Assembly: GCA_963808015.1 (NCBI GenBank)
Contig: CAWEEG010000020.1
Coordinates: forward strand, 1,051-65,050
DNA length: 64,000 nucleotides
Direction of reading: 5' to 3'
Source: an uncultured Actinomycetota bacterium
GTDB lineage: Bacteria > Actinomycetota > Acidimicrobiia > Spongiisociales > UBA5794
Shown: positions 1 to 45,413 of the stretch, piece by piece
Layout: every line of letters starts with the position of its first letter
Position numbering within the stretch: position 1 is the first letter of the stretch
Notes under the pieces: model-generated
Told to the model about the DNA's origin: nothing
The model's database searches: none
The model's input: the letters and a program-made list of their open reading frames with translations, nothing else
Translations under genes and position numbers: made by a program

Positions 1-170
1 CTATCCTATGATTATGATACTTATCAAACTATTGAGAAATGACGAATAGTGGTTCTCATCTGGATTATATGATGAAACGGGTTCAGGGAATCGAAGGGCC
101 GGGTGTTTTCTTTTTCAGTGTTCTACTCGAACCCCTGACCCCTTGACCCCTCGGATCCTGACTTTACCCT

Positions 171-1183
171 TCATTTTGATTTAAAATGATCCCATCCTTT
201 GGGTTTGAATTCTTTAATCCGGTCCGACGAATCGACAATTTCCATTTTTCCAGAATTTGTTATCTTTCCAATGGGATAAAGAGGACTGTTAAAGGTTTTT
301 AGATATTTTTCGGTCACATCATCGGCATGATCCGGCGACACGGTGCATAGCAATGTATAATCTTCACCTCCGGCAAATGCAAACTCAGCAGGGTTAAAAT
401 CAAACCGTCTGCAAAAAAAGATCAGATTTTTTGAAACAGGAATTTGGTCAGCGAATAAACGAACACCTACATGGCTTTCCTTTGCAATATGAACAATATC
501 GGATGAAAGCCCGTCGCTGACATCTATCGCTGCGTGAACACCGTTTTGAGCGGATAGAAATCGGCCTTCGTGTAAAAAGGGCCTTGGAAGAATATGCGCA
601 TGAAACAGTGCTTTCAACTTCTTTAGAATCAGCCGGTATGTTGTTTAGTATCATGTGCAGCCCTGCACGGCTGTCACCCAGAAAGCCTGTGGAAAAAATG
701 ATATCTCCAGGTTGTGCTGCATTTCTAAGGAGCAATTCCTCCTTTGGGAACACTGCCTGTCACAGAAATATTAATAATTAAGTCAACCACAGACGAGGTG
801 GTATCGCCGCCAAGAATGTTGACCTTAAATGTAGCAGCCAGATCTTTTATCCCACGGTAAAGATCTTCAAGAAAGTCTATGGAGCAATCTTCAGGAATAG
901 CAACACTGATAAATGCCTCCCTTGCAGTTCCGCCCATGGCTGCAATATCGCTTAAATTGACAGCCAAAGATTTATATCCTAGATTAAATCCGGTTGTTGC
1001 ATCTCGCAGAAAATGAACCCGTTCAACCAGCAAGTCTGTGGTTATAAGGGAGACAAGGCCGGCATCTGTATAAAATGCAGCCGCATCATCGCCGATTGCA
1101 CGTATTATATTTTCAGGACGGATGAGGCAACCCTGACTGATTTTTTCGATAAATCCGAACTCCCCGATATCTTTTAATTTCAT
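171..1183 (-). CDS. thiL: thiamine-monophosphate kinase ThiL, reading frame broken twice
   Basis: ORF pieces 725..1183, 448..753 and 171..617 read as one ThiL. N-term has GEFGFIEKI...IGDDAAAF...TTDLLVERVHF. The middle has PGDIIFSTGFLGDSRAGL. C-term has AAIDVSDGLSSD...GGEDYTLLCTV. Frame changes near ~745 and ~610. The start overlaps the thiE stop. Confidence 0.8.
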
Positions 1184-1860
1184 GAGATACGTGCCTTTTT
1201 TATCATAGCACCTAATTTTTCGGCGGCTTTTCCAGGATCATCCGCAGAAACAATGGTTGATACAACGGCAATTCCGTCGGCACCGTTTAATATGACTTCG
1301 CCTGCATTTTCACAGTTTAAACCGCCGATGGCAACTTTTGGGATCTTTACAGTCCTGCTTATTTTTTTTAATCCCTCAAGACCAAGTGGCATAGCTGTAT
1401 CTGTTTTTGTTGGGGTTGCGAAAATCGGACTGATGCCGATATAATCTGCACCATCTTTTTCAGCCCGGATCGCATCTTCAAGAGATTCAGCGGAAATTCC
1501 GATGATCATCGAATTTTTCAGAATATCTTTTGCCATTCTAAGCGGCATGTCTGTCTGGCCCAAATGAACGCCGTCTGCGCCAACTGCCTGTGCAACATCC
1601 ACCCGGTCATTAATGATCAGCGGGATATTGCTTTGTTTTAAATACTTTTTTACAGATAATGCTTCTGTAATAAATTTGCGTGTGGAACAGTGTTTCTCAC
1701 GCAGTTGAACGCAGGTTACACCTCCGGCAACACCGGCTTTGACAATTTCAAGGGTGGCTCTTCCCCTGGAAAGAGCTCTGTCTGTAACAAGGTATAAAGA
1801 ATAATCGATTGAGGCAATTTCAAAACGTCCCCTTTTGTCCGACATCTGCGTCAGGCTCAT
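1180..1860 (-). CDS. thiE: thiamine-phosphate synthase
   Basis: 226 aa intact ORF. Contains LYLVTDR, VQLREK, IINDRVDVA...GADGVHLGQ and ISPIFATPTK, all typical ThiE motifs. Sits between thiM and thiL. Confidence 0.9.
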   Translation of the reverse strand: MSLTQMSDKRGRFEIASIDYSLYLVTDRALSRGRATLEIVKAGVAGGVTCVQLREKHCSTRKFITEALSVKKYLKQSNIPLIINDRVDVAQAVGADGVHLGQTDMPLRMAKDILKNSMIIGISAESLEDAIRAEKDGADYIGISPIFATPTKTDTAMPLGLEGLKKISRTVKIPKVAIGGLNCENAGEVILNGADGIAVVSTIVSADDPGKAAEKLGAMIKKARIS

Positions 1861-1971
1861 ATTTTAATCCTCGAAATACTACATGTATTCCTGTGGTTAA
1901 AATATTCGCCTTCCTTGATCTCGAACAAAATTGAACATTTTGAAACCGCCTCAATTGATTCAGGTTTCATT

Positions 1972-2736
1972 TCAATTTTTCTCAATCTTACAACCTGCTT
2001 TAAGCTTTTCCGGGGTTATTGTATATAAGGCATCCAGCATCTTTATCATGAAACTTCCAGGTGCCTGTGCTTTTTTACCTGCCACTTCTCCTGCCAGGCC
2101 GAAAAATGCAAGCGCGGTGGCCGCTGCGCTGAATGGATCATGGTCTACGGCTAAAAATGCACCGACAACTGCGGTTGCCGTGCATCCGGTTCCGGTGACA
2201 CATGCCATAAGGGGGTGACCATTGGAAACATGCACTGTACGGTTACCGTCAGTCACCAGGTCAACAGAACCTGTTATAGCCAGAGTGGTTTGCAATTCTT
2301 TTGCCAGTATTTTGGCTGTGTTAGTGGCATCTTCAACACTGTGGATAGAATCAACACCTTTGGTTTTTGAATCACTGTTTTTAAGGGATAAAATTTCCGA
2401 CGCATTTCCCCGGATAACGCTGATTTTTGTTTCATTAATAATTTTTTTGGCAGACTCAGTTCTTAGTGATGTAGCTCCGGACCCAACCGGGTCAAGTATG
2501 ATGGGAGTTTTCAGGGTGGTTGCCTTTTTCCCGGCTTTAATCATGGAATCAATCCAGTCATCAGTTAGTGTACCAATGTTAAGTACCAGAGCGCCGGCAA
2601 ATGAAACCATTTGTTCGACTTCATTTGGTGCGTGGGCCATAACCGGCGATGCACCCACGGCAAGAAGTGCATTTGCCGTATAATTCATCACAACATAGTT
2701 TGTTATATTATGAATAAGCGGCTTGTTTTTTCTCAC
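1972..2736 (-). CDS. thiM: hydroxyethylthiazole kinase
   Basis: 254 aa intact ORF. Contains PLIHNITNYVVMNYTANALLAVGASPVMAH, ILDPVG and VTGTGC motifs. First gene downstream of the TPP riboswitch. Confidence 0.9.
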   Translation of the reverse strand: MRKNKPLIHNITNYVVMNYTANALLAVGASPVMAHAPNEVEQMVSFAGALVLNIGTLTDDWIDSMIKAGKKATTLKTPIILDPVGSGATSLRTESAKKIINETKISVIRGNASEILSLKNSDSKTKGVDSIHSVEDATNTAKILAKELQTTLAITGSVDLVTDGNRTVHVSNGHPLMACVTGTGCTATAVVGAFLAVDHDPFSAAATALAFFGLAGEVAGKKAQAPGSFMIKMLDALYTITPEKLKAGCKIEKN

Positions 2737-2825
2737 AGCAGTAAGGTTTTAGGCCGTTTTGGAAGAGAGATTTTTCATGAGGTAACTCCTGTCTTGGTGA
2801 AAAGGCAGCAGTGCTGGAATTTCTC

Positions 2826-2960
2826 CAATAAAAAAGCCGTTTGCAAGGAAACGGCTTTTTAGGGTTCTATAAATGATAAGTATGTCGTTCCCTACGCTGG
2901 AATTATCCAGATCAGGTTCAAAGGGTGTAATCTCAGGCGTCTTGCAGCCACCCCGCATGT
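2826..2960 (-). promoter_or_regulatory. TPP (THI-box) riboswitch with intrinsic-terminator expression platform
   Basis: The minus strand of 2884..2956 reads gcggggtggctgcaagacgCCTGAGAttacACCCTTTGAACCTGATCTGGATAATTCCAGCGTAGGGAAcgac, the canonical THI element core. It is followed (plus 2826..2860) by the hairpin GCCGTTT-ccttgc-AAACGGC plus a T-run. Located in the 5-prime leader of thiM. Confidence 0.9.
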
Positions 2961-3118
2961 TAATTTTTTTTATTCTAATCTCTAACAAACAGACAGTGAT
3001 AAGTCAACAATAAATTATATGCATAAATACATCAGAAATAGTATTTTATTTGTAGTATATCCTTATTGTCAGAATCTGATCCCCTGAAAACTGTATTAAT
3101 TAACAGAGATAAACGATG

Positions 3119-4409
3119 CTAAAATTCAGCTGATCGGGATGCCGCTGTATCCGTATCATCGGTTTCCTTGTCTGCGATCTGAAGCGCTTTATCGATGATA
3201 TCGATGGCTTGATCCACCTGTTCCACGGTAATAATCAAGGGCGGAGCGAGGACCAGGTTGTCATACCAGGCCAGCATGTGTAAACCGTGATGCATGCACT
3301 CCATGGAAGTTTTTCCGGTCATCAGCGGTTTTCCGCTGATTTTATCCGCTTCGACATTAAACGGTTCTTTGGTCTTTCGATTTTTTCGATTTCGAAGGCC
3401 CAGAAATGCCCCGGCCCCTGACGTCACCGATACAGGGATGTTTGTCCGCCAGTTCATAAAGCCTGTTTTTCAATGCTGGCTGAGTTTTTGCGGCAATCCG
3501 CTCTCCATCATCCGCCTGTCTCCGCGATCGCCGTCGGCACCGGTGATAAAGCCATGGCATGATAAGCATAGGTATGACCATGGCAAAAGAAGTTATCTTC
3601 AAAGAATCGGCAACCCCCTTGTTGGCGACGGTAATTCCCAGCGGTGTATAGGCTGATGTCGGCTCCCTTTGCCGTAGTCATGATATCCGGCTGGACATCC
3701 CAGATATCCATAGCAAATGCGTGGCCGGTTCTGAACCATCCAGTCATGACTTCATCGGCGATTAACAGCACACCGTTTTCATCACAAATTTTTCTAACTA
3801 ACGGAAAATATTCCGGGGGTGGAACGATACGCCCGTTGGTCCCAACGATCGGCTCAACGATCATGGCGGCTACGTTGCCTTCCTCTTTGATCATATAGTC
3901 CAGATATCTCGCGCACTGGATTTGGCATCCAGGATATTCCAAGGCGAATGGGCAACGGTAGCAGTAAGCGTCCGGTGCGAAAAGAACGCCATCGACCGTG
4001 TACCTGACACTTTCAACCGGCCACCGCCGTGGATCTCCGGTAAAAGCCATACCGGTGGGTGTCGCCCCATGAAAAGAATGATAGCGAGAAATCACCTTGT
4101 AAGCCGGTGCCTTGGATTGCCTGACCATGACCAGCGCACCGTCATTGGCCTCGGTACCACTGGTCAAAAAAGAACTTGTCCAAGCCTTTCGGCATAATGG
4201 ACCGCAACGCTTCAACCGCTTCCACAGCGATCTCAGTGGTAAAACCTGGCGCAATATAGGGCAGTTTTTCAGCTTGCTTCACAATGGCCTCAATAATTGC
4301 CTTGTTTTTTATGGCCCAGATTGGAACACATCAACTGGGATGAAAAATCGAGATACGATTTCCCCTTGGCATCATAGAAATAGACGCCTTCAGCATCAGT
4401 AATTAATGT
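3119..4409 (-). pseudogene. class-III (omega) aminotransferase, multiply frameshifted and 5-prime truncated at the composition break
   Basis: Pieces 4290..4409 (TLITDAEGVYFYDAKGKSYLDFSSQL), 3508..4254 (FHGAT...MIVEPIVGTNG...LLIADEVMTGWFRTGH...DIMTTAKG), 3357..3602 frame (HPCIGDVRGRG) and 3119..3457 (LVLAPPLIITVEQVDQAIDII) together make one PLP aminotransferase in four frames. No start codon lies before the break at ~4409. Confidence 0.7.
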
Positions 4410-5519
4410 CGGCGCGATCCAAGCGTTTTGCCGACTTCCATCGACACGATCGAAGCGGTCTCCGGCGCGGGAATGCAGACGGTCGGCGGTGGTCAGAACG
4501 CCGACGCAGCGTGGGAGCCTCTCCTCGTCGATGTATCGGGGCTGACCGTCGCCGTATTCGCGTTCGACGTGAGTGGACACGGACTTGGCGCATCCCAAGG
4601 CCCGGGCGTCGCGTCTTGGGATCCGGACCGTGCCGAGATCGCTGTAGGGGACGCCCGCGCGATTGCCGATGTGGTCGTGGCAGGCATCCATGGCGGCCTC
4701 GAGTTCTGGCAAGACATTGATCCGCAGTTGGAACCCGTCGCACTGAATCTGGCCTCATGGGGCGTCGACATCGTCTGGGGTCACGGCCCCCACGTCGCAC
4801 AGCCGATATCACTGTCCGAGGCGTACGGCACCCGACCGACGGTGATCGCCACCAGCCTCGGGAACTTCCTCTTCGACCAGCAGACCGAGCCAACGAGTCA
4901 CGGATCGATCCTCGAGGTGCTCGTCGACGGAAGCGGCGTAGCGGCGTGGCGCACCGGCCACAAACACCACGACGATCTGAGAGTTCACTTTGCAGGTTGG
5001 GATCTCCCCATTGGGAATGCGGGCCTCGTTGACGGTGACTGGTGGAACGTGGCCCGCGATCTCCCGTTGGATGCGGTCGACGCGCCAGCAACCGGGTTCC
5101 CGTTTGGAACCGTTCTCGCTGCCTCTGTCGGCGATATCGCGGGCGTCGGAATCGAGACCGTCCTCGTTTCGTATCGCCATCCGCTCAGCGACGCGAATTG
5201 GGATCCGCGACCGATGGCAACCGATACGTCCGGCCGCAGTGCACACATAGGAGTGTTCGAGTCGGACTGGACGCCCGTCTGGATGTCCCGCCGCCCTCCG
5301 CATCCCGTAGGAACCCTCGCTGCTTGTGATGGATCTGCCGCTTTCGGGTACACAACGCTCGATGATCCGACCGTGGTGGCAACCGGGGCTGGCGCCTGGA
5401 ACGGGTTCGGCTTCACACTCGCCCCAGACCTTCCAGGCCACGGCACACCCTCGTGCGCGGACTTCGATCACGACGGTGATCTCGATGCCGTAGTCGTAGA
5501 CCGCTCAACTATCCGTTGA
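4410..5519 (+). CDS. CapA-family (poly-gamma-glutamate synthesis-type metallophosphatase) C-terminal fragment with FG-GAP/VCBS-like tail, N-terminus missing
   Basis: The frame is open from the in-frame TAA at 4404-4406. Contains GAGMQTVGGGQNADAAWEP, DVVVAGIHGG and IVWGHGPHVAQPI (CapA-type motifs), and ends CADFDHDGDLDAVVVD. No plausible start or N-terminal half. Confidence 0.55.
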   Translation, partial: RRDPSVLPTSIDTIEAVSGAGMQTVGGGQNADAAWEPLLVDVSGLTVAVFAFDVSGHGLGASQGPGVASWDPDRAEIAVGDARAIADVVVAGIHGGLEFWQDIDPQLEPVALNLASWGVDIVWGHGPHVAQPISLSEAYGTRPTVIATSLGNFLFDQQTEPTSHGSILEVLVDGSGVAAWRTGHKHHDDLRVHFAGWDLPIGNAGLVDGDWWNVARDLPLDAVDAPATGFPFGTVLAASVGDIAGVGIETVLVSYRHPLSDANWDPRPMATDTSGRSAHIGVFESDWTPVWMSRRPPHPVGTLAACDGSAAFGYTTLDDPTVVATGAGAWNGFGFTLAPDLPGHGTPSCADFDHDGDLDAVVVDRSTIR

Positions 5520-38377: not shown

Positions 38378-38452
38378 GCCCCAGTAGCTCAGGGGATAGA
38401 GCGCCGGCCTCCGGAGCCGGGAGCGCAGGTTCGATTCCTGCCTGGGGCACCA
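38378..38452 (+). tRNA. tRNA-Arg (anticodon CCG), CCA encoded
   Basis: Hand-folded cloverleaf. Acceptor is GCCCCAG/CTGGGGC. D arm is GCTC-aggggata-GAGC. Anticodon arm is CCGGC-ctCCGga-GCCGG. T arm is GCAGG-ttcgatt-CCTGC. Discriminator is A, followed by CCA. Confidence 0.9.
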
Positions 38453-39292: not shown

Positions 39293-40804
39293 ATGACGGA
39301 CGCCGACACACCTCCGCCAGCTGATTCCGCGCCGCCGGAACCACCCGAGGAACGAGGCAGGCGCGACTGGGTGATCGGCCTTCTTGCCATCATTCTCCTC
39401 GTAGCCGGACCCATCGTCATCTTCGTCGGTATCCGCAACTCGGTCGAGGCCGCGAATGCCGACAACGCGTGGTCCGGTGTGCCGACAACGGTCCCGCACA
39501 CGGACCATTCACTCCTCATGACCGGCCCATACGAGACCGGCTCCGAGGTCACAGAAGGTTGCCTCGAGTGCCATGCGGAGGCGGGCGAACAGATGCTCCA
39601 GAGCGAGCACTGGTTGTGGGAGAACCCACCGGTCTCGCTGCCCGGACGCGACGAACCGGTCGCCCTCGGGAAGAAGAACTCCCTCAACAACTTCTGCACG
39701 GGCATCCAGGGCAACGAGCAGCAATGCACGACGTGCCACGCCGGGTACGGCTGGGAGGACGAGACCTTCGACTTCACGGACGAGACGAGGATCGACTGCC
39801 TCGTCTGTCACGACCAATCCGGGCAGTATGGCAAAACAGACTGGGGATACCCGGCCGAAGCGACCGATCTCGTACTCGCTGCGGGGAGCGTCGGTCGTCC
39901 AACGCGCACGAACTGCGGCTCGTGCCACAGCACCGGCGGCGGTGGCAACGGTGTGAAACACGGCGACCTCGACAACACCCTCAACTACCCGAACGAGACC
40001 ATCGACTTCCACATGGGCGTCCTGGACATTCAGTGCGTCGACTGCCACACGACCACCGACCACCAGATCGCGGGTACATCCACATCGGTGAAGCTCATCG
40101 ACGACAACCCGGTGTCGTGCACCGATTGTCACAACTCGCTCCCCCACGAGGATGACCGCCTCAACAGCCACACCGACCGAGTCGCCTGCGAAACGTGCCA
40201 CATCCCGGAATACGCCGTCAAGGATCCGACCAAACTCTGGTGGGACTGGTCGACCGCAGGTCAGGACGGCATCTCCGACGATCCGCACGAGTACCTCAAG
40301 ATCAAGGGCAGCTTTGTCTACGGCACGCAACTCATCCCTGAGTACTACTGGTTCGACGGCACAGCGGAACGCTACTTGCTTGGAGATCCGATCGACCCCG
40401 AGGGCATCACGATCCTCAACGACCCGAACGGAGGCGTCGACGATCCGGTCGCCAAGATCTACCCGTTCAAGATTCATCGCGGCCTTCAGCCATACGACGC
40501 CGTCCACAACTACTTCATCCAGCCGAATCTCGTGGGCGACGAGGGGTATTGGACGATCTTCGACTGGGATATCGCGCTGCAGAACGGCGCCGACGACACC
40601 GGCTTCGACTTCAGCGGTGAGTACGGGTTCGCGCGGAGCGACATGTACTGGCCGCTCGAGCACATGGTTGCCCCCGCCGGCGAGGCACTCCAATGCACGG
40701 CGTGCCACTCGGACGCCGGTCGTCTCGACTGGAAGGCTCTCGGTTACGACGCCGATCCGATGGACACCGCAGGCCAGCGAACTACCGACGGAAGTGACCG
40801 ATGA
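39293..40804 (+). CDS. octaheme c-type cytochrome, tetrathionate-reductase (Otr) family, N-terminal membrane anchor
   Basis: 503 aa intact. Eight CxxCH motifs: CLECH, CTTCH, CLVCH, CGSCH, CVDCH, CTDCH, CETCH, CTACH. NNFCTGIQGNEQQCTTCHAGYGW and CHSTGGGGNGVKHGD resemble the Otr-type octaheme family as I recall it. The N-terminal TM is VIGLLAIILLVAGPIVIFVGI. Confidence 0.75.
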   Translation: MTDADTPPPADSAPPEPPEERGRRDWVIGLLAIILLVAGPIVIFVGIRNSVEAANADNAWSGVPTTVPHTDHSLLMTGPYETGSEVTEGCLECHAEAGEQMLQSEHWLWENPPVSLPGRDEPVALGKKNSLNNFCTGIQGNEQQCTTCHAGYGWEDETFDFTDETRIDCLVCHDQSGQYGKTDWGYPAEATDLVLAAGSVGRPTRTNCGSCHSTGGGGNGVKHGDLDNTLNYPNETIDFHMGVLDIQCVDCHTTTDHQIAGTSTSVKLIDDNPVSCTDCHNSLPHEDDRLNSHTDRVACETCHIPEYAVKDPTKLWWDWSTAGQDGISDDPHEYLKIKGSFVYGTQLIPEYYWFDGTAERYLLGDPIDPEGITILNDPNGGVDDPVAKIYPFKIHRGLQPYDAVHNYFIQPNLVGDEGYWTIFDWDIALQNGADDTGFDFSGEYGFARSDMYWPLEHMVAPAGEALQCTACHSDAGRLDWKALGYDADPMDTAGQRTTDGSDR

Positions 40805-43630
40805 GACGCCGGCGATTCGCGGTGGTGCTCGGGGTGGCCGCCCTGTTCGCCGCTACGTTCCTCGGCGCCGCCGTTGACCCGTCGGCTGCGTCAACAAGCG
40901 ACGAGACGGACGGCGGGCTCGTGATCCCGCCCGGTGGCGGAGTGGTTCCACCGGAGGAGGTCCAGGATCTCGTCAACCCTCCCCCACCCCCGGAACCCAC
41001 GGGCAGCACAATGCACCCCACATTCGCGTTGCTCGATAGCGAGGCGACCAACGTGCTGTCGAGCGGCAGACCCGTCTCCACGCTCACAACGTGCGGGCAA
41101 TGCCATGACTCGAAGTTCATCGTTGAGCACAACTACCACGCCACAGTCGGCCTTGACAGCCTGACCGATCCCGGCACCGCCGCATCAGGACGGGCCTGGG
41201 ACATCTCCAACGGGTGGTTTGGGCGATGGAACCCCATTACGTACCGCTACCTGACTCCCGAGGGTGACGGCACCCTCGACCTCAGCACACCAGAGTGGAT
41301 CATGACCCTCGGTGCGCGCCACGCAGGAAGCGGACCTGCGACAACGTCACGCGAAGGTTCCGCGCTTGCGAACCTGGCACCGGACGTCACGGACCCTGAA
41401 ACGAACCTTCTCATGAACGACGGCGACACCGTCGTCGCGTGGGACTGGCAGAACTCCGGCGTCGAGGAAATCAACTGCTTCCTCTGCCACGTGCCGGTAT
41501 CGGACAACGATGCTCGTATCGCCGAACTCCAAGCCGGGCGGTTCGAATGGGCCAACACCGCAACACTCGCGGCGACGAGCGCCGTCGAACAGACGGCCGA
41601 TGGCTGGGCTTGGAACCCCGGAGCGTTCACGGAATCCGGGAGGGTCGACAACGAACACCTCCCGATCGGCAAGTCCACCAACGACAACTGTGGCCAATGC
41701 CACGGCACCGTGCACATGAGCGTCGACCCAATCGATGGACAGACACTGCTCAACGGTTGGGAGACCTACACCACCGGTCAGGTCTTCTCAGACCAGCGCC
41801 TCTCGACATCGGGCCTGAATCTCCCCGACAAGGACGACCTGAGTCGGGCCTGGGACATCCACGCCGAACGCGGCCTGGATTGCATCAGTTGCCACTCATC
41901 GATCAACAACAGCGCCCAGGTTGCCGAGGATGCCGCGAGCAAGCCGACACATCTGCTCTACGACCCGCGACGACCGAATCTCGACGAATACCTCAGTCGG
42001 CCGATCCACGAACTCGCGAAAGGCGACACCGCTCAGGGTACGGTCGCTCCCGAGTACGACGGCACGATGCGAACGTGCAGCGGCTGCCACGACCCCTCCG
42101 AGTCCCACGAATGGCTGCCCTATCAGGACCGCCACATGCAGGTGGTGGCGTGTGAAACATGCCACATCCCGACAGCGAACGCTCCGGCGGCTGAGCAGTA
42201 CGACTGGACCGTGATCCACACCGACGGCACTCCGCGCACACAGATCCGCGGCGCCGACGGACCGATCGAGAACGCCGCCACCATGATCGATGGTTTCGAC
42301 CCGGTGATCCTGCTGCGGTCCGACAACGCCGGGGAGATCAGCCTCTCGCCCTACAACCTCGTTGGATCCTGGTACTGGGCGCACGGGAGCGGGGATGCCG
42401 AGCGGCCCGTGCGATCCGCCGATCTGGAAGCGGCCTACCTCGACGGTGAAGGCGGCTACGACGCTGCAATCGTCGCCGCCTTCGACACAGATGGCGACGG
42501 CACCATCTCCGAAACCGAACTGGCGATCGATACCGATGAGAAGCGGTCGGTTGTTGCCTCGCGCCTCGAATCCCTCTCCCTCTCAAACCCGCACATCATC
42601 GGAGAGGTCCAGGCCTACAGCGTCGCCCACGGTGTGGTCGGCAGCGATTGGGCGATCAAGGACTGTCAGGTCTGCCATTCGAGCAACTCGAGGCTCAGCG
42701 CCGGAATGCGAGCTCGGCACGTACGTACCGGGCGGGGTCCTCCCCGCGTTCGTCGCAGACACCAACACCGAATCAACCGGAGTCATGACGATCGCCGAGG
42801 ACGGGTCGCTGGTCTACCTTCCCGAGACCACGTCTGGCGAAATCGAAGTGCTCGGCAGCGATACCGCCGGCTGGTCCGACTGGGTCGGACTTGCTGTGCT
42901 GCTCATGGTCCTCGTCGGCATCATCATCCACAGCTTCTTCCGATACTGCGCGCGCCGCTGCTGGAACCGCGGCGCCACCGTCAAACAGCCCGCCACCGCA
43001 GAGGTCTACATCTACACGAAGTACGAGCGGTTCTGGCACTGGATGCAGGCGATCGTGATCGGCGTTCTGATCGTGACCGGAATCGTCATCCACTGGCCGA
43101 CCAACGCCACAACGTTCAGCTGGATGATCGTCGCACACAACGTGACCGCGGTCATCCTCGTCATCAACGCACTCGTGGCCCTGGTCGACTCCATCGCCAC
43201 CGGTTCGGTAAAGCGGTTTATCCCCCACCCCCAGGGATTCTTCAGCCAGGCGATCGACCAGACCGTGTACTACGCAAAGGGCATCTTCCTGGGTGAACCG
43301 CATCCCCATGAGAAGCGTGTCGGCGCACGCCTGAACCCACTCCAGCAAGCCACCTACCTCGTGATCCTCAACATCCTGCTGCCCGGTCAGGTGATCACCG
43401 GCATTCTCATCTGGGGAGCACAGCGGTGGCCCGGCTTCACGTCTCGTCTGGGCGGCCTGGGGTTCCTCCTCCCGGTTCACAACCTCATCGCCTGGCTCTT
43501 CGCCGCGTTCCTCATCCTTCACATCTACCTCACCACCACCGGCGTCACCCCGCTCGCGAGCATCAAGGGCATGGTGACCGGCTGGGAGGAAGTTGAAGTC
43601 TCATCGGTTGTGGAGGAGGTGAAGACCTGA
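40801..43630 (+). CDS. multiheme cytochrome c fused to a membrane cytochrome b (HydC/FdnI-like); CbcL-like quinol oxidoreductase; one frame break near 42700
   Basis: Signal peptide MRRRRFAVVLGVAALFAATFLGAA. Seven CxxCH motifs: CGQCH, CFLCH, CGQCH, CISCH, CSGCH, CETCH, CQVCH. After CQVCHSSNSRLS the sense continues in the frame of ORF 42362..43630 (PECELGTYVPGG...) into five hydrophobic helices with YERFWHWMQA and HNVTA/HNLIA/HIYL histidines typical of FdnI/HydC b-cytochromes. ATGA overlap with the upstream gene. Confidence 0.65.
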
Positions 43631-44193
43631 TGGCCATCAAGCCGGTCGGCCCGTCGGTCCGCAAAGGCAAGGCTCCCAACCCTCGCCCGTTCCCGAACCC
43701 GTATCTCGTCGGCGTTGGCCTGGGCGTCGTGCTCTTCATATCCGTCCTCATCACGGGAGATGGCCTTGGGGCATCCGGCGCCGTTCAGCGCATCTGGGCG
43801 TGGTTCGAGAACCTGATCGCCCCCCAACACGTCGACACGAACATCTACCTCGTCAAGTACCGCGGGGGGTGATGCACAGCCGCTCAATCATTGGATCGTG
43901 ATGCTCGCGATCGGTGTCCTGATCGGCGGATTCATCTCCGGCCTTATCGGCAGACGCGCGTCTACACCGAGATCGTCAAAGGCCCTCGCATCTCAAACAA
44001 CACTCGGCTTCTATTCGCTCTCCTTGGCGGCTCCTTCGTTGGGTTCGGAGCGCGGTTCGCCAGGGGCTGCACGTCGAGCCAGGGCCTCACCGGGTCGGCG
44101 TTGCTCTCGGTCGGGAGTTGGGTCTTCATGATGGCGTTCTTCGCCGGCGCCCTCGCTGCCGCACCGTTCTTCAAGAAGCTGTGGAACGACTGA
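43630..44193 (+). CDS. YeeE/YedE-family sulfur-compound transporter half-protein, two frame breaks (~43866 G-run, ~43950)
   Basis: Pieces 43630..43872, the frame of 43898..44131 (WIVMLAIGVLIGGFISGLIGRR) and 43891..44193 (LLFALLGGSFVGFGARFARGCTSSQGLTG) together make a ~187 aa Sulf_transp-type protein with the conserved GC(T/S)S motif. TGATG overlaps at both ends. Confidence 0.6.
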
Positions 44194-45413
44194 TGCCATT
44201 CCCACTCGACCTCCACGAACTGGGCACCCCCGCTACCTACACGATCTTCGTGTTCATCGGCATCGGGTTCGGATTCATGCTCGAGCAAGCCGGGTTCGGG
44301 CGCAGCACGAAACTCGCCGCGCAGTTCTACTTCAAGGACTTCGCCATGTTCCGAGTCATGTTCACGGCTGTGATCACCGCCATGGTTCTGACCTTCGGAG
44401 CGGTCGGCATCGGCATCCTCGACTTCAGAAAGGTCTTTGTTCCCGGAACGTATCTGTGGCCGATCGCCATCGGCGGATTCATCCTCGGCGTCGGATTCCT
44501 CATCGGTGGCCTCTGCCCGGGAACGTCGATCGCAGGCGCCGCGACGCTCAAACTCGATGCCATGGTCTTCCTCGCCGGCGTCGTCATCGGTGTGTTCGTC
44601 TTCGGTGAGACGGTCCCCTACTTCATGGGGTTCTGGACAGCCTCGGACTTCGGACGACTCACACTCCCGGAGTGGCTGGGCATCCCAACCGGGGTCATCG
44701 TCTTGTTCATCGTCGTGTTCGCACTCCTGCTGTTCTGGGGTTCCGAAGCGCTCGAGAAGAAGCTCGACGGGACGGACCCGGCCGACGCCCCCAAAGGCCG
44801 CTACATCGGAGCCGGTGTGATTGTCGTCCTCGCTCTTCTTGTTCTCTTGCTCGGCGACCCGACGACCGGCGACTACTGGGATGCGGTGGCGGCCGACGAA
44901 CAGGCACGACTCGACAACCGTGAAGTGCAGATCCACCCGGGAGAGCTTCTCGGATTGATGAACGACACGTTCGTCAATCTCATCATGCTCGACGTACGCG
45001 ACCAGCGGGACTACAACCAGTTCCACCTCAGGGCCGCGCGCCAGACCGACCCGACGCTCGACGCCGTCGAGTCCGCCGCACCCGACCTGATCGGGCTCAC
45101 CCCGAGATCCGTCATCGTCGCGATGAGCAACGATGAACGCGACGCAACCGAGGCGTGGAAGACGCTCGTCGCCAACAACGTCATCAACACGTACATACTC
45201 GAAGGTGGGATCAACGAATGGATCGAAGTCTTCGGAGAAGATGCCGATCCGAGACCGACCACCTATCCGGACCAATTGGCGTTCACGTTCACATCAGCCC
45301 TCGGAGGTCGCTGCGTGGCCTCCGACCCCCACGCCGACGACTTCGAACTCATCTACGAGCCGAAAGTGGTGATCGCCGGCCCCGCAGCCGTAGTAGGCGG
45401 AGGATGCGGATAG
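44193..45413 (+). CDS. YeeE/YedE half-protein fused to a rhodanese-like domain lacking the catalytic cysteine
   Basis: The N-terminal ~200 aa are polytopic with GFLIGGLCPGTS (YeeE-type Cys motif). The C-terminal LIMLDVRDQRDYNQFHLRAA...VIVAMSNDERDATEAW...YILEGGINEW has the rhodanese fold pattern, but Met-Ser replaces the active-site Cys. It ends ...VVGGGCG. Confidence 0.6.
   Translation: MPFPLDLHELGTPATYTIFVFIGIGFGFMLEQAGFGRSTKLAAQFYFKDFAMFRVMFTAVITAMVLTFGAVGIGILDFRKVFVPGTYLWPIAIGGFILGVGFLIGGLCPGTSIAGAATLKLDAMVFLAGVVIGVFVFGETVPYFMGFWTASDFGRLTLPEWLGIPTGVIVLFIVVFALLLFWGSEALEKKLDGTDPADAPKGRYIGAGVIVVLALLVLLLGDPTTGDYWDAVAADEQARLDNREVQIHPGELLGLMNDTFVNLIMLDVRDQRDYNQFHLRAARQTDPTLDAVESAAPDLIGLTPRSVIVAMSNDERDATEAWKTLVANNVINTYILEGGINEWIEVFGEDADPRPTTYPDQLAFTFTSALGGRCVASDPHADDFELIYEPKVVIAGPAAVVGGGCG

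What the first reader, a model, noticed from the sequence alone, without database searches (positions are those of the whole stretch)
40801..43630. c-type/b-type cytochrome fusion hidden by a frame break (CbcL-like architecture)
The ORF track shows an 831 aa protein whose last ~200 aa are Arg-rich nonsense. It also shows a separate 422 aa ORF whose first ~110 aa are nonsense. Joining them near 42700 (…CQVCHSSNSRLS|PECELGTYVPGGVLPAFV…) gives a ~940 aa protein. Its parts are a signal peptide, a Pro-rich linker, a seven-heme periplasmic-type domain, and then a five-helix cytochrome b with YERFWHWMQA and conserved His residues. The best-known example of this fusion is Geobacter CbcL, an inner-membrane quinol oxidase feeding extracellular electron transfer. 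Finding it in a monoderm-type genome coupled to an Otr-like reductase is unusual.
Basis: partly seen in the sequence, partly recalled or inferred. Interest (0 to 1): 0.6.

Follow-up and report, generated by a model that had tools for sequence, protein, structure and literature searches.

The report
Multihaem-c/cytochrome-b fusion, broken by assembly error
This is one 942-residue membrane cytochrome (seven c-type haems outside the cell, two b-type haems in the membrane). It most likely passes electrons from the quinone pool to the tetrathionate-reductase-like enzyme encoded next to it, and its apparent split into two genes is almost certainly a sequencing or assembly error.

Summary
The two overlapping ORFs are real, and together they encode one 942-aa protein. 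The parts are a signal peptide, a Pro-rich linker, a seven-CxxCH ectodomain, a linking helix, and a four-helix dihaem cytochrome b of the FdnI/HyaC/PhsC type.

Three independent relatives lack that base. 14 of 20 congeneric species genomes carry a match, none with an internal stop, and the full-length ones are single frames of 933-1064 codons. The window has 26 net +1 differences from its closest genome, some of them in hom, lysA and argS. The break is therefore very probably an assembly artefact.

The protein is not rare, and its pairing with Otr is not unusual. At least 589 species genomes encode a relative, mostly Chloroflexota and Acidimicrobiia. All 80 loci examined carry the same cassette: Otr, this protein, and two YeeE-type halves with a rhodanese-like domain. 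Unfused versions also exist.

The c-domain is a distant OTR paralogue that lacks the catalytic Lys-haem. The resemblance to CbcL is shown only for domain architecture. Another first-stage note of this scan had already recorded the four-gene operon.

The parts
38378..38449 (+). tRNA gene upstream of the cassette
   Evidence: Rfam RF00005, 69.4 bits
39293..40804 (+). Otr-type octahaem cytochrome c (503 aa), with an N-terminal membrane anchor at aa 27-45, eight CxxCH motifs and the catalytic Lys retained
   Evidence: TIGR04315 546 bits (cut-off 375). PF11783 9e-56. S. oneidensis OTR 1SP3 E 9e-140, with GKKNS (Lys56) conserved. TM segment and haem motifs.
40801..42711 (+). Frame-1 part of the fusion gene (aa 1-637): signal peptide (aa 1-~30), Pro-rich linker (~31-68) and the seven-haem ectodomain. 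CxxCH motifs start at 41092, 41476, 41689, 41881, 42076, 42151 and 42664. The start codon overlaps the Otr stop (ATGA).
42711..42711 (+). Extra base (A) that shifts the frame by +1; not in a homopolymer
   Evidence: Absent from L003, L004 and G017. The in-frame word CGAG occurs only at 42709.
42713..42871 (+). Frame-2 continuation of the ectodomain (aa 638-690), including invariant P643, G644, P648 and F650
42872..42958 (+). Linking transmembrane helix TM0 (aa 691-719, out to in) with invariant His710
   Evidence: AlphaFold helix 691-719; hydropathy and positive-inside loops
42992..43597 (+). Four-helix dihaem cytochrome b domain (aa 731-932). Proposed ligands are His746 (43037), His779 (43136), His893 (43478) and His907 (43520).
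   Evidence: PF01292 69.9 bits. NF011582 PhsC 119 bits, below its cut-off. Foldseek FdnI 1kqf_C TM 0.66 and HyaC. His residues invariant. 51% identical to a free-standing cyt b of an unfused operon.
43630..44193 (+). First YeeE/YedE-type half-transporter (186 aa in relatives). Here it is broken by +1 at 43860 and +2 at 43955-56, with a TGA at 43870-72 between them.
44193..45413 (+). Second YeeE/YedE-type half fused to a rhodanese-like domain (406 aa)
   Evidence: PF04143 and PF00581; conserved in the related loci

Best explanation
Positions 40801-43630 hold a single gene for a 942-aa membrane cytochrome. The apparent split is caused by one spurious extra base at 42711, introduced during sequencing or assembly.

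The protein begins with an export signal. The seven-haem domain sits on the outer face of the cytoplasmic membrane. One helix (TM0) brings the chain back to the cytoplasm. A four-helix FdnI/HyaC/PhsC-type bundle then holds two b haems stacked across the membrane.

Inferred mechanism: menaquinol is oxidised at the b domain. Electrons pass through the two b haems and the seven c haems to the membrane-anchored Otr-type octahaem reductase encoded immediately upstream. Otr reduces a soluble oxyanion outside the cell, most likely tetrathionate to thiosulfate, with nitrite or hydroxylamine also possible. The two YeeE/YedE-type proteins downstream would import the sulfur product.

The c-domain is itself a diverged OTR paralogue without the catalytic Lys-ligated haem. 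It therefore acts as a wire or docking subunit, not as an enzyme.

Shown: gene structure, domain identities, conserved ligands, topology, operon conservation and purifying selection. Inferred: direction of electron flow, the substrate and the contact with Otr.
For: One gene.
- More than 120 full-length homologues of 886-978 aa; the best is 90% identical and 942 aa long.
- 14 of 20 congeneric species genomes have a match, none with an internal stop; the 10 full-length matches are single open frames of 933-1064 codons, and the rest are cut by contig ends.
- dN/dS against G017 is 0.10 upstream of the break and 0.05 downstream.
- The break falls inside conserved ectodomain sequence. It is 80-95 residues before the natural subunit boundary (aa ~718-730) seen in unfused relatives.

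Artefact.
- Against the closest genome there are 26 net +1 differences, compared with 5 net -1, in about 45 kb.
- At most of them the relative keeps the longer open frame. Several lie in hom, lysA and argS.
- This rate predicts about 1.6 such events in a 2.8-kb gene.

Function.
- PF01292 match, His pattern, FdnI/HyaC fold and positive-inside topology.
- Otr partner with the catalytic Lys retained.
- Overlapping stop/start codons.
- The four-gene cassette is present in all 80 loci examined, as far as their contigs reach.
- Unfused operons Otr, MHC7, cyt b (YeeE, YeeE, rhodanese) exist.
- The c-domain is homologous to OTR haems 4-8.
Against: A real, very recent frameshift in this population therefore cannot be excluded.

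An exact-match scan of public metagenome contigs found neither the version with the extra base nor the one without it.

No cytochrome c maturation genes were found in this 65%-complete genome, although five of five congeners have them.

Substrate, direction of electron flow and the physical contact with Otr are untested. The structure model has low confidence for residues 364-412. The homology of haems 1-2 of the c-domain to OTR is uncertain.
Confidence: 0.72

Rival explanations
1. The frameshift is a real mutation. The gene is a recent pseudogene, or it is now expressed as two pieces: a truncated multihaem protein with a 194-aa nonsense tail, plus a cytochrome b restarted at an internal ATG such as 42786.
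For: The extra base is not in a homopolymer, so it is not a classic homopolymer miscall. The next gene, the first YeeE half, is also disrupted. No reads could be inspected.
Against: The same kind of +1 extra base also hits hom, lysA and argS in this window. Another window of this genome is reported to show the same pattern. That is implausible for a living cell. Insertions outnumber deletions 26 to 5, the opposite of the usual bacterial mutation bias (established knowledge). The sequence downstream of the break is under stronger constraint than the sequence upstream (dN/dS 0.05). The break is not at the natural subunit boundary.
Confidence: 0.1
2. The break is read through in the cell by programmed +1 ribosomal frameshifting or transcript editing, possibly genome-wide in this organism.
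Against: No relative has a shift at this site. The sites share no common sequence context or slippery motif. At AUG-CGA-G the P-site tRNA cannot re-pair in the +1 frame (inference). The YeeE break needs a +1 and a +2 event with a stop codon between them.
Confidence: 0.03
3. The protein is a CbcL-like quinol oxidase for extracellular electron transfer to minerals or electrodes, and does not serve Otr.
For: It has the same domain order as CbcL (PMC6295460). The haem domain is exposed on the outside of a cell without an outer membrane.
Against: The gene is linked to an Otr gene with an intact catalytic Lys, and to YeeE-type transporters, in all 80 loci examined. The genes are translationally coupled. 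The c-domain is OTR-like, and there are seven haems rather than nine. No other conduit genes lie in the cassette.
Confidence: 0.1

Closest known systems
CbcL (GSU0274) of Geobacter sulfurreducens, inner-membrane quinol oxidase
   Same: One polypeptide with an N-terminal multihaem c domain outside the membrane and a C-terminal HydC/FdnI-like dihaem b membrane domain (PMC6295460, PMC9129911).
   Different: CbcL has nine CxxCH motifs and six helices. This protein has seven CxxCH motifs and five helices after the signal peptide. Its c-domain is an OTR paralogue. It is always encoded beside Otr and YeeE-type genes rather than working with periplasmic trihaem carriers. A published survey found no CbcL homologues in Actinobacteria or Chloroflexi (PMC6295460).
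FdnI / HyaC / PhsC family of dihaem cytochromes b (PF01292)
   Same: Four-helix bundle, four His ligands in the same positions (including the 14-residue spacing on the last helix), and N- and C-termini in the cytoplasm.
   Different: This domain is fused behind a 690-aa haem c ectodomain through an extra helix. It scores below the PhsC equivalog cut-off (119 against 204 bits). Its partner is an octahaem cytochrome, not a molybdo- or NiFe-enzyme.
Otr plus free-standing cytochrome b561 gene pairs (for example the Ignavibacteria MAG in PMC7509429; L094 in this genus)
   Same: An Otr-type reductase encoded next to a PF01292 cytochrome b that is presumed to link it to quinol.
   Different: Those pairs lack the heptahaem subunit. 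In L094 the third gene is a SLAC1/TehA-type channel instead of YeeE-type proteins.
Octahaem tetrathionate reductase OTR of Shewanella oneidensis (PDB 1SP3)
   Same: The c-domain aligns with OTR haems 4-8 and the beta-rich domain between them (97.9% probability).
   Different: The c-domain has no counterpart of the Lys-ligated catalytic haem 2. It scores 24 bits against a cut-off of 375 for TIGR04315. It is membrane-tethered and fused to cytochrome b.

Membership tests
PF01292 dihaem cytochrome b (HydC/FdnI/HyaC/PhsC type) | Profile match above the curated threshold | tested here: met
   69.9 bits against 30.1 for ORF B residues 218-407
PF01292 dihaem cytochrome b (HydC/FdnI/HyaC/PhsC type) | Four His haem ligands: one on helix 1, one on helix 2, and two on helix 4 spaced 14 residues apart | tested here: met
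   His746, His779, His893 and His907 are invariant in 59 sequences. They align with the RxWHW and H-x13-H motifs of HyaC. Haem binding itself was not tested.
PF01292 dihaem cytochrome b (HydC/FdnI/HyaC/PhsC type) | Four-helix fold like solved members | tested here: met
   Foldseek: 1kqf_C probability 1.00, TM 0.66; HyaC 6g94/4gd3 probability 1.00
PhsC (thiosulfate reductase cytochrome b, NF011582 equivalog) | Score at or above the equivalog cut-off | tested here: not met
   119.2 bits against a cut-off of 204. The database name 'thiosulfate reductase cytochrome b subunit' is therefore only a family-level label.
CbcL family | N-terminal multihaem c domain and C-terminal HydC/FdnI-like b domain in one chain | tested here: met
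   CbcL description in PMC6295460
CbcL family | Nine CxxCH motifs | tested here: not met
   Seven motifs, invariant across the family
CbcL family | Sequence homology of the c-domain to CbcL | not testable with these tools
Indirect evidence: the c-domain is OTR-like, and a published survey found no CbcL homologues in these phyla (PMC6295460).
OTR family (TIGR04315), applied to the c-domain of the fusion | Score above the family cut-off, and a Lys-ligated catalytic haem | tested here: not met
   24 bits against 375. No aligned counterpart of Lys127/haem 2. The homology is remote only (97.9%, E 3e-13).
OTR family (TIGR04315), applied to the upstream gene 39293-40804 | Score above cut-off, eight CxxCH motifs, Lys56 of 1SP3 conserved | tested here: met
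   546 bits against 375; eight motifs; GKKNS aligned with 1SP3 Lys56; Lys invariant in 29 orthologues

The most novel reading that the evidence does not exclude
Otr, the heptahaem OTR paralogue, cytochrome b and the YeeE-type transporter (with a rhodanese-like domain) together form a widespread, uncharacterised respiratory module of Chloroflexota, Acidimicrobiia and other phyla. In this reading it is a menaquinol:tetrathionate (or related sulfur-oxyanion) oxidoreductase that also imports its product. The catalytically dead OTR-like subunit would dock onto Otr as a pseudo-dimer partner. That would identify the long-missing physiological electron donor of OTR-type enzymes.
Probability: 0.35. Interest if true: 0.6.

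Novelty: new variant of a known kind. Interest (0 to 1): 0.4.

Why it matters
The frame break itself does not matter. It is a warning that this assembly carries about one spurious inserted base per 1.7 kb, so every 'split gene' in it should be distrusted.

The protein is more interesting. OTR-type octahaem enzymes are common in genomes, but their physiological role and electron donor are still unclear. Here the donor appears hard-wired: a heptahaem OTR paralogue joined, or in other lineages encoded adjacent, to a quinol-binding cytochrome b. It always lies next to Otr and usually next to YeeE-type sulfur transporters, in at least 589 species genomes, including abundant soil and activated-sludge Chloroflexota.

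This gives a concrete three-subunit complex to test. It also offers a genomic marker for sulfur-intermediate respiration in bacteria that lack an outer membrane.

Tried and rejected
- Exact scan of public metagenome contigs around the junction, with or without the extra base: 0 hits.
- Foldseek of the whole model against the PDB: matches only the b domain; the c-domain found nothing.
- PDB sequence search with the family profile: only weak HyaC and FdnI matches.
- ResB and Cytochrom_C_asm were not found in the window's own 65%-complete genome. Five of five congeners have the latter, so this was treated as incompleteness.
- A CbcL sequence could not be obtained with the tools, so no direct alignment was made.
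- Literature searches for the Otr-heptahaem-cytochrome b module, or for Otr with YeeE, in Chloroflexi or Acidimicrobiia found no description. The Shewanella otr neighbour SO4142 is a monohaem cytochrome.
- Programmed frameshifting and a natural two-gene split at the break were considered and rejected (see rivals).
- The twin-Arg-like N-terminus (MRRRRF) was considered as a possible Tat signal. It was not pursued, because c-type cytochromes are normally exported unfolded (established knowledge).
Full report
**Observation**

The window holds ORF A (40801..43296, 831 aa, frame 1) and ORF B (42362..43630, 422 aa, frame 2) exactly as described.
- ORF A carries seven CxxCH motifs.
- The C-terminal half of ORF B matches PF01292, prokaryotic cytochrome b561, at 3e-19.
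- A search with the joined sequence returned more than 120 full-length proteins of 886-978 aa. The best is 90% identical and 942 aa long.
- These homologues read ...CHSSNSRLSAGMRLGTYVPGGVLP.... Frame 1 is therefore right up to R637 (42709-11), and frame 2 is right from L638 (42713).
- The window has one extra base at this point, an A at 42711. It is absent from a JGI contig (L003), an ENA contig (L004) and the closest species genome, G017.
- Reading the single in-frame word CGAG as one codon gives the 942-aa protein P0121.

**Is the break biological?**

The window lies in a MAG of 2.05 Mb in 57 contigs, with 65% estimated completeness. I aligned the window with the syntenic contig of the closest genome (G017, about 87% nucleotide identity, about 45 kb aligned).
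- There are 82 gap clusters. 26 have a net +1 in the window, 5 a net -1, 4 a net +2 and 1 a net -2.
- At most +1 sites the relative keeps the longer open frame.
- Proteins from a second relative (L004) show the same picture. Six of 16 genes around the cassette are disrupted in the window (five change frame or lose their C-terminus, and YeeE carries a compensated shift), including hom, lysA and argS.
- The inserted bases lie partly in short runs and partly in none, and they share no motif.
- At this rate, about 1.6 such events are expected in a 2.8-kb gene.
- 14 of 20 other species of the genus carry a match, none with an internal stop. The 10 full-length matches are single open frames of 933-1064 codons, and the rest are cut by contig ends.
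- dN/dS against G017 is 0.10 upstream of the break and 0.05 downstream.
My own count in this window agrees.

The simplest reading is an insertion-biased sequencing or assembly error. An exact-match scan of public metagenome contigs found nothing either way.

**Anatomy**

| Residues | Feature |
|---|---|
| 1-~30 | Hydrophobic export signal |
| ~31-68 | Pro-rich linker, present in the Acidimicrobiia copies only |
| ~70-690 | Ectodomain with seven invariant CxxCH motifs and an EF-hand-like FDxDGDG loop at 561-574 |
| 691-719 | Linking helix TM0 |
| 740-764, 769-800, 846-875, 885-912 | The four helices of the b domain |

- Invariant His110, 113, 354, 403, 445 and 610, plus near-invariant His72, 305 and 436, are candidate distal ligands.
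- The AlphaFold model (mean pLDDT 78, pTM 0.72) gives the helices listed above.
- The loops 715-742 and 798-848 are rich in Lys and Arg, and the segment before TM0 is acidic. The haem c domain is therefore outside, and both ends of the four-helix bundle are in the cytoplasm.
- Foldseek matches the bundle to FdnI (1kqf_C, TM 0.66) and HyaC.
- His746 lies in YERFWHW. His893 and His907 are 14 residues apart. All three align with the corresponding motifs of HyaC, and with His779 they are invariant in 59 sequences.
- The nearest named model is PhsC, but the score is below its cut-off (119 against 204 bits).

**The c-domain is an OTR paralogue**

A profile of the fusion family (A2) was compared with a profile of 29 Otr orthologues (A3). 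This gave 97.9% probability, E 3e-13, over 289 columns.
- Fusion haems 3-7 (297, 361, 426, 451, 622) pair with OTR haems 4-8 (208, 248, 276, 299, 468), across the beta-rich Cytochrome_cB domain.
- A weak HMMER match to TIGR04315 points the same way.
- No counterpart exists for the Lys-ligated catalytic haem 2 of OTR.
- The homology of the first ~200 residues, with haems 1-2, is uncertain.

**The module**

- The upstream gene (39293-40804) is a true Otr-family member. It scores 546 bits on TIGR04315, matches 1SP3 at E 9e-140, and has eight CxxCH motifs, Lys56 conserved and one N-terminal anchor helix.
- The four genes overlap at ATGA, TGATG and TGATG.
They are mostly Anaerolineae and other Chloroflexota, plus Acidimicrobiia.
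- In all 80 loci fetched, Otr lies upstream, and the two YeeE-type genes lie downstream (the second with a rhodanese-like domain), wherever the contig reaches.
- A HMMER search of 1.84 billion cluster representatives with the c-domain alone gave 737 clusters, 268 of them below 1e-30.
- Among the best 150, 32 are fused. Most of the others are 590-720 aa proteins with seven haems and one C-terminal helix.
- Their operons read Otr, MHC7, cyt b in a Latescibacterota genome. In another MAG they read Otr, MHC7, cyt b, YeeE half, YeeE half, rhodanese as six separate genes.
- The free MHC7 aligns to residues 70-717 of P0121, and the free cytochrome b aligns to 731-932 at 51% identity.
- The natural subunit boundary is therefore at about 718-730. 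The window's break at 637 is not at that boundary.
- The genus also has a second, simpler Otr system: Otr, free cytochrome b and a SLAC1/TehA-type channel.

**Mechanism (inferred)**

- Quinol is oxidised at the b domain. Electrons cross the two b haems, run along the seven c haems and enter Otr, which reduces a soluble acceptor outside the cell.
- The YeeE-type partners (weak, below-cut-off NCBIfam matches to thiosulfate transporter TsuA/YeeE and selenium protein YedE models) point to a sulfur oxyanion. Tetrathionate reduced to thiosulfate followed by uptake fits best.
- Nitrite or hydroxylamine, which OTR also reduces in vitro (cited in PMC7887784), remain possible.
- Whether the quinol site lies near the cytoplasmic or the outer haem, and therefore whether the reaction is electrogenic, cannot be told from sequence.

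**Comparison and novelty**

- The architecture matches CbcL: N-terminal c haems and a C-terminal HydC/FdnI-like b domain (PMC6295460, PMC9129911).
- The haem number differs (7 against 9). The c-domain has a different origin, being OTR-like, and the partners differ.
- A 2018 survey listed no CbcL homologues in Actinobacteria or Chloroflexi (PMC6295460).
- Otr next to a free cytochrome b561 has been noted in a MAG paper (PMC7509429).
- I found no paper describing the heptahaem subunit, its fusion, or the link to YeeE-type genes.
- Databases call these proteins 'thiosulfate reductase cytochrome b subunit' or 'cytochrome b/b6 domain-containing protein'.
- I rate it a new variant of a known kind.
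- A first-stage note of this scan had already flagged the four-gene operon.

Noticed in passing
window 4437-64000 (for example 21954, 22171, 23263, 23595, 28746, 34122, 35138, 35287, 36614, 43860, 46023, 48266, 54748, 56050, 60092): Single-base extras relative to the closest genome are spread across the whole window (26 net +1 against 5 net -1). They break many genes, including hom, lysA and argS. This probably also depresses the 65% completeness estimate.
   Followed up: partly
window 1-4400: GC is 42-46% here against about 62% elsewhere. The stretch holds thiL (split), thiE, thiM, a TPP riboswitch (2871-2965, minus strand) and a partial class-III aminotransferase. It is not syntenic with the closest genome, whose alignment starts at 4437. 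It may be a chimeric join or recently acquired DNA.
   Followed up: partly
window 43630-44193: The first YeeE-type gene carries a +1 at 43860 and a +2 at 43955-56 (an extra CG in a CGCGCG run), with a TGA at 43870-72 in the misread stretch. Relatives encode an intact 186-aa protein.
   Followed up: yes
L094 (G003:C22:24500-31500), 965-4439 minus strand: A congener has a second Otr system without the heptahaem subunit: an Otr paralogue (549 aa), a free cytochrome b561 (208 aa) and a SLAC1/TehA-type anion channel (363 aa).
   Followed up: partly
L097 4418-10482; L096 4526-8750: Fully unfused versions of the module exist. One has six separate genes: Otr, heptahaem protein, cytochrome b, two Sulf_transp halves and rhodanese. 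The other, in a Latescibacterota genome, has three genes and no transporter.
   Followed up: yes
window 42481-42522 (aa 561-574 of the fusion): An EF-hand-like loop (FDTDGDGTISETEL), nearly invariant across the family, sits in the haem c ectodomain. It may be a calcium site.
   Followed up: no
genus and family level: The distribution is patchy: 14 of 20 congeneric species, 0 of 4 species from other genera of the family, and 1 of 16 from other families of the order. The closest non-actinobacterial relatives are Chloroflexota at about 48-50% identity. The cassette sits beside a tRNA gene, so horizontal transfer is plausible. This was not tested.
   Followed up: no
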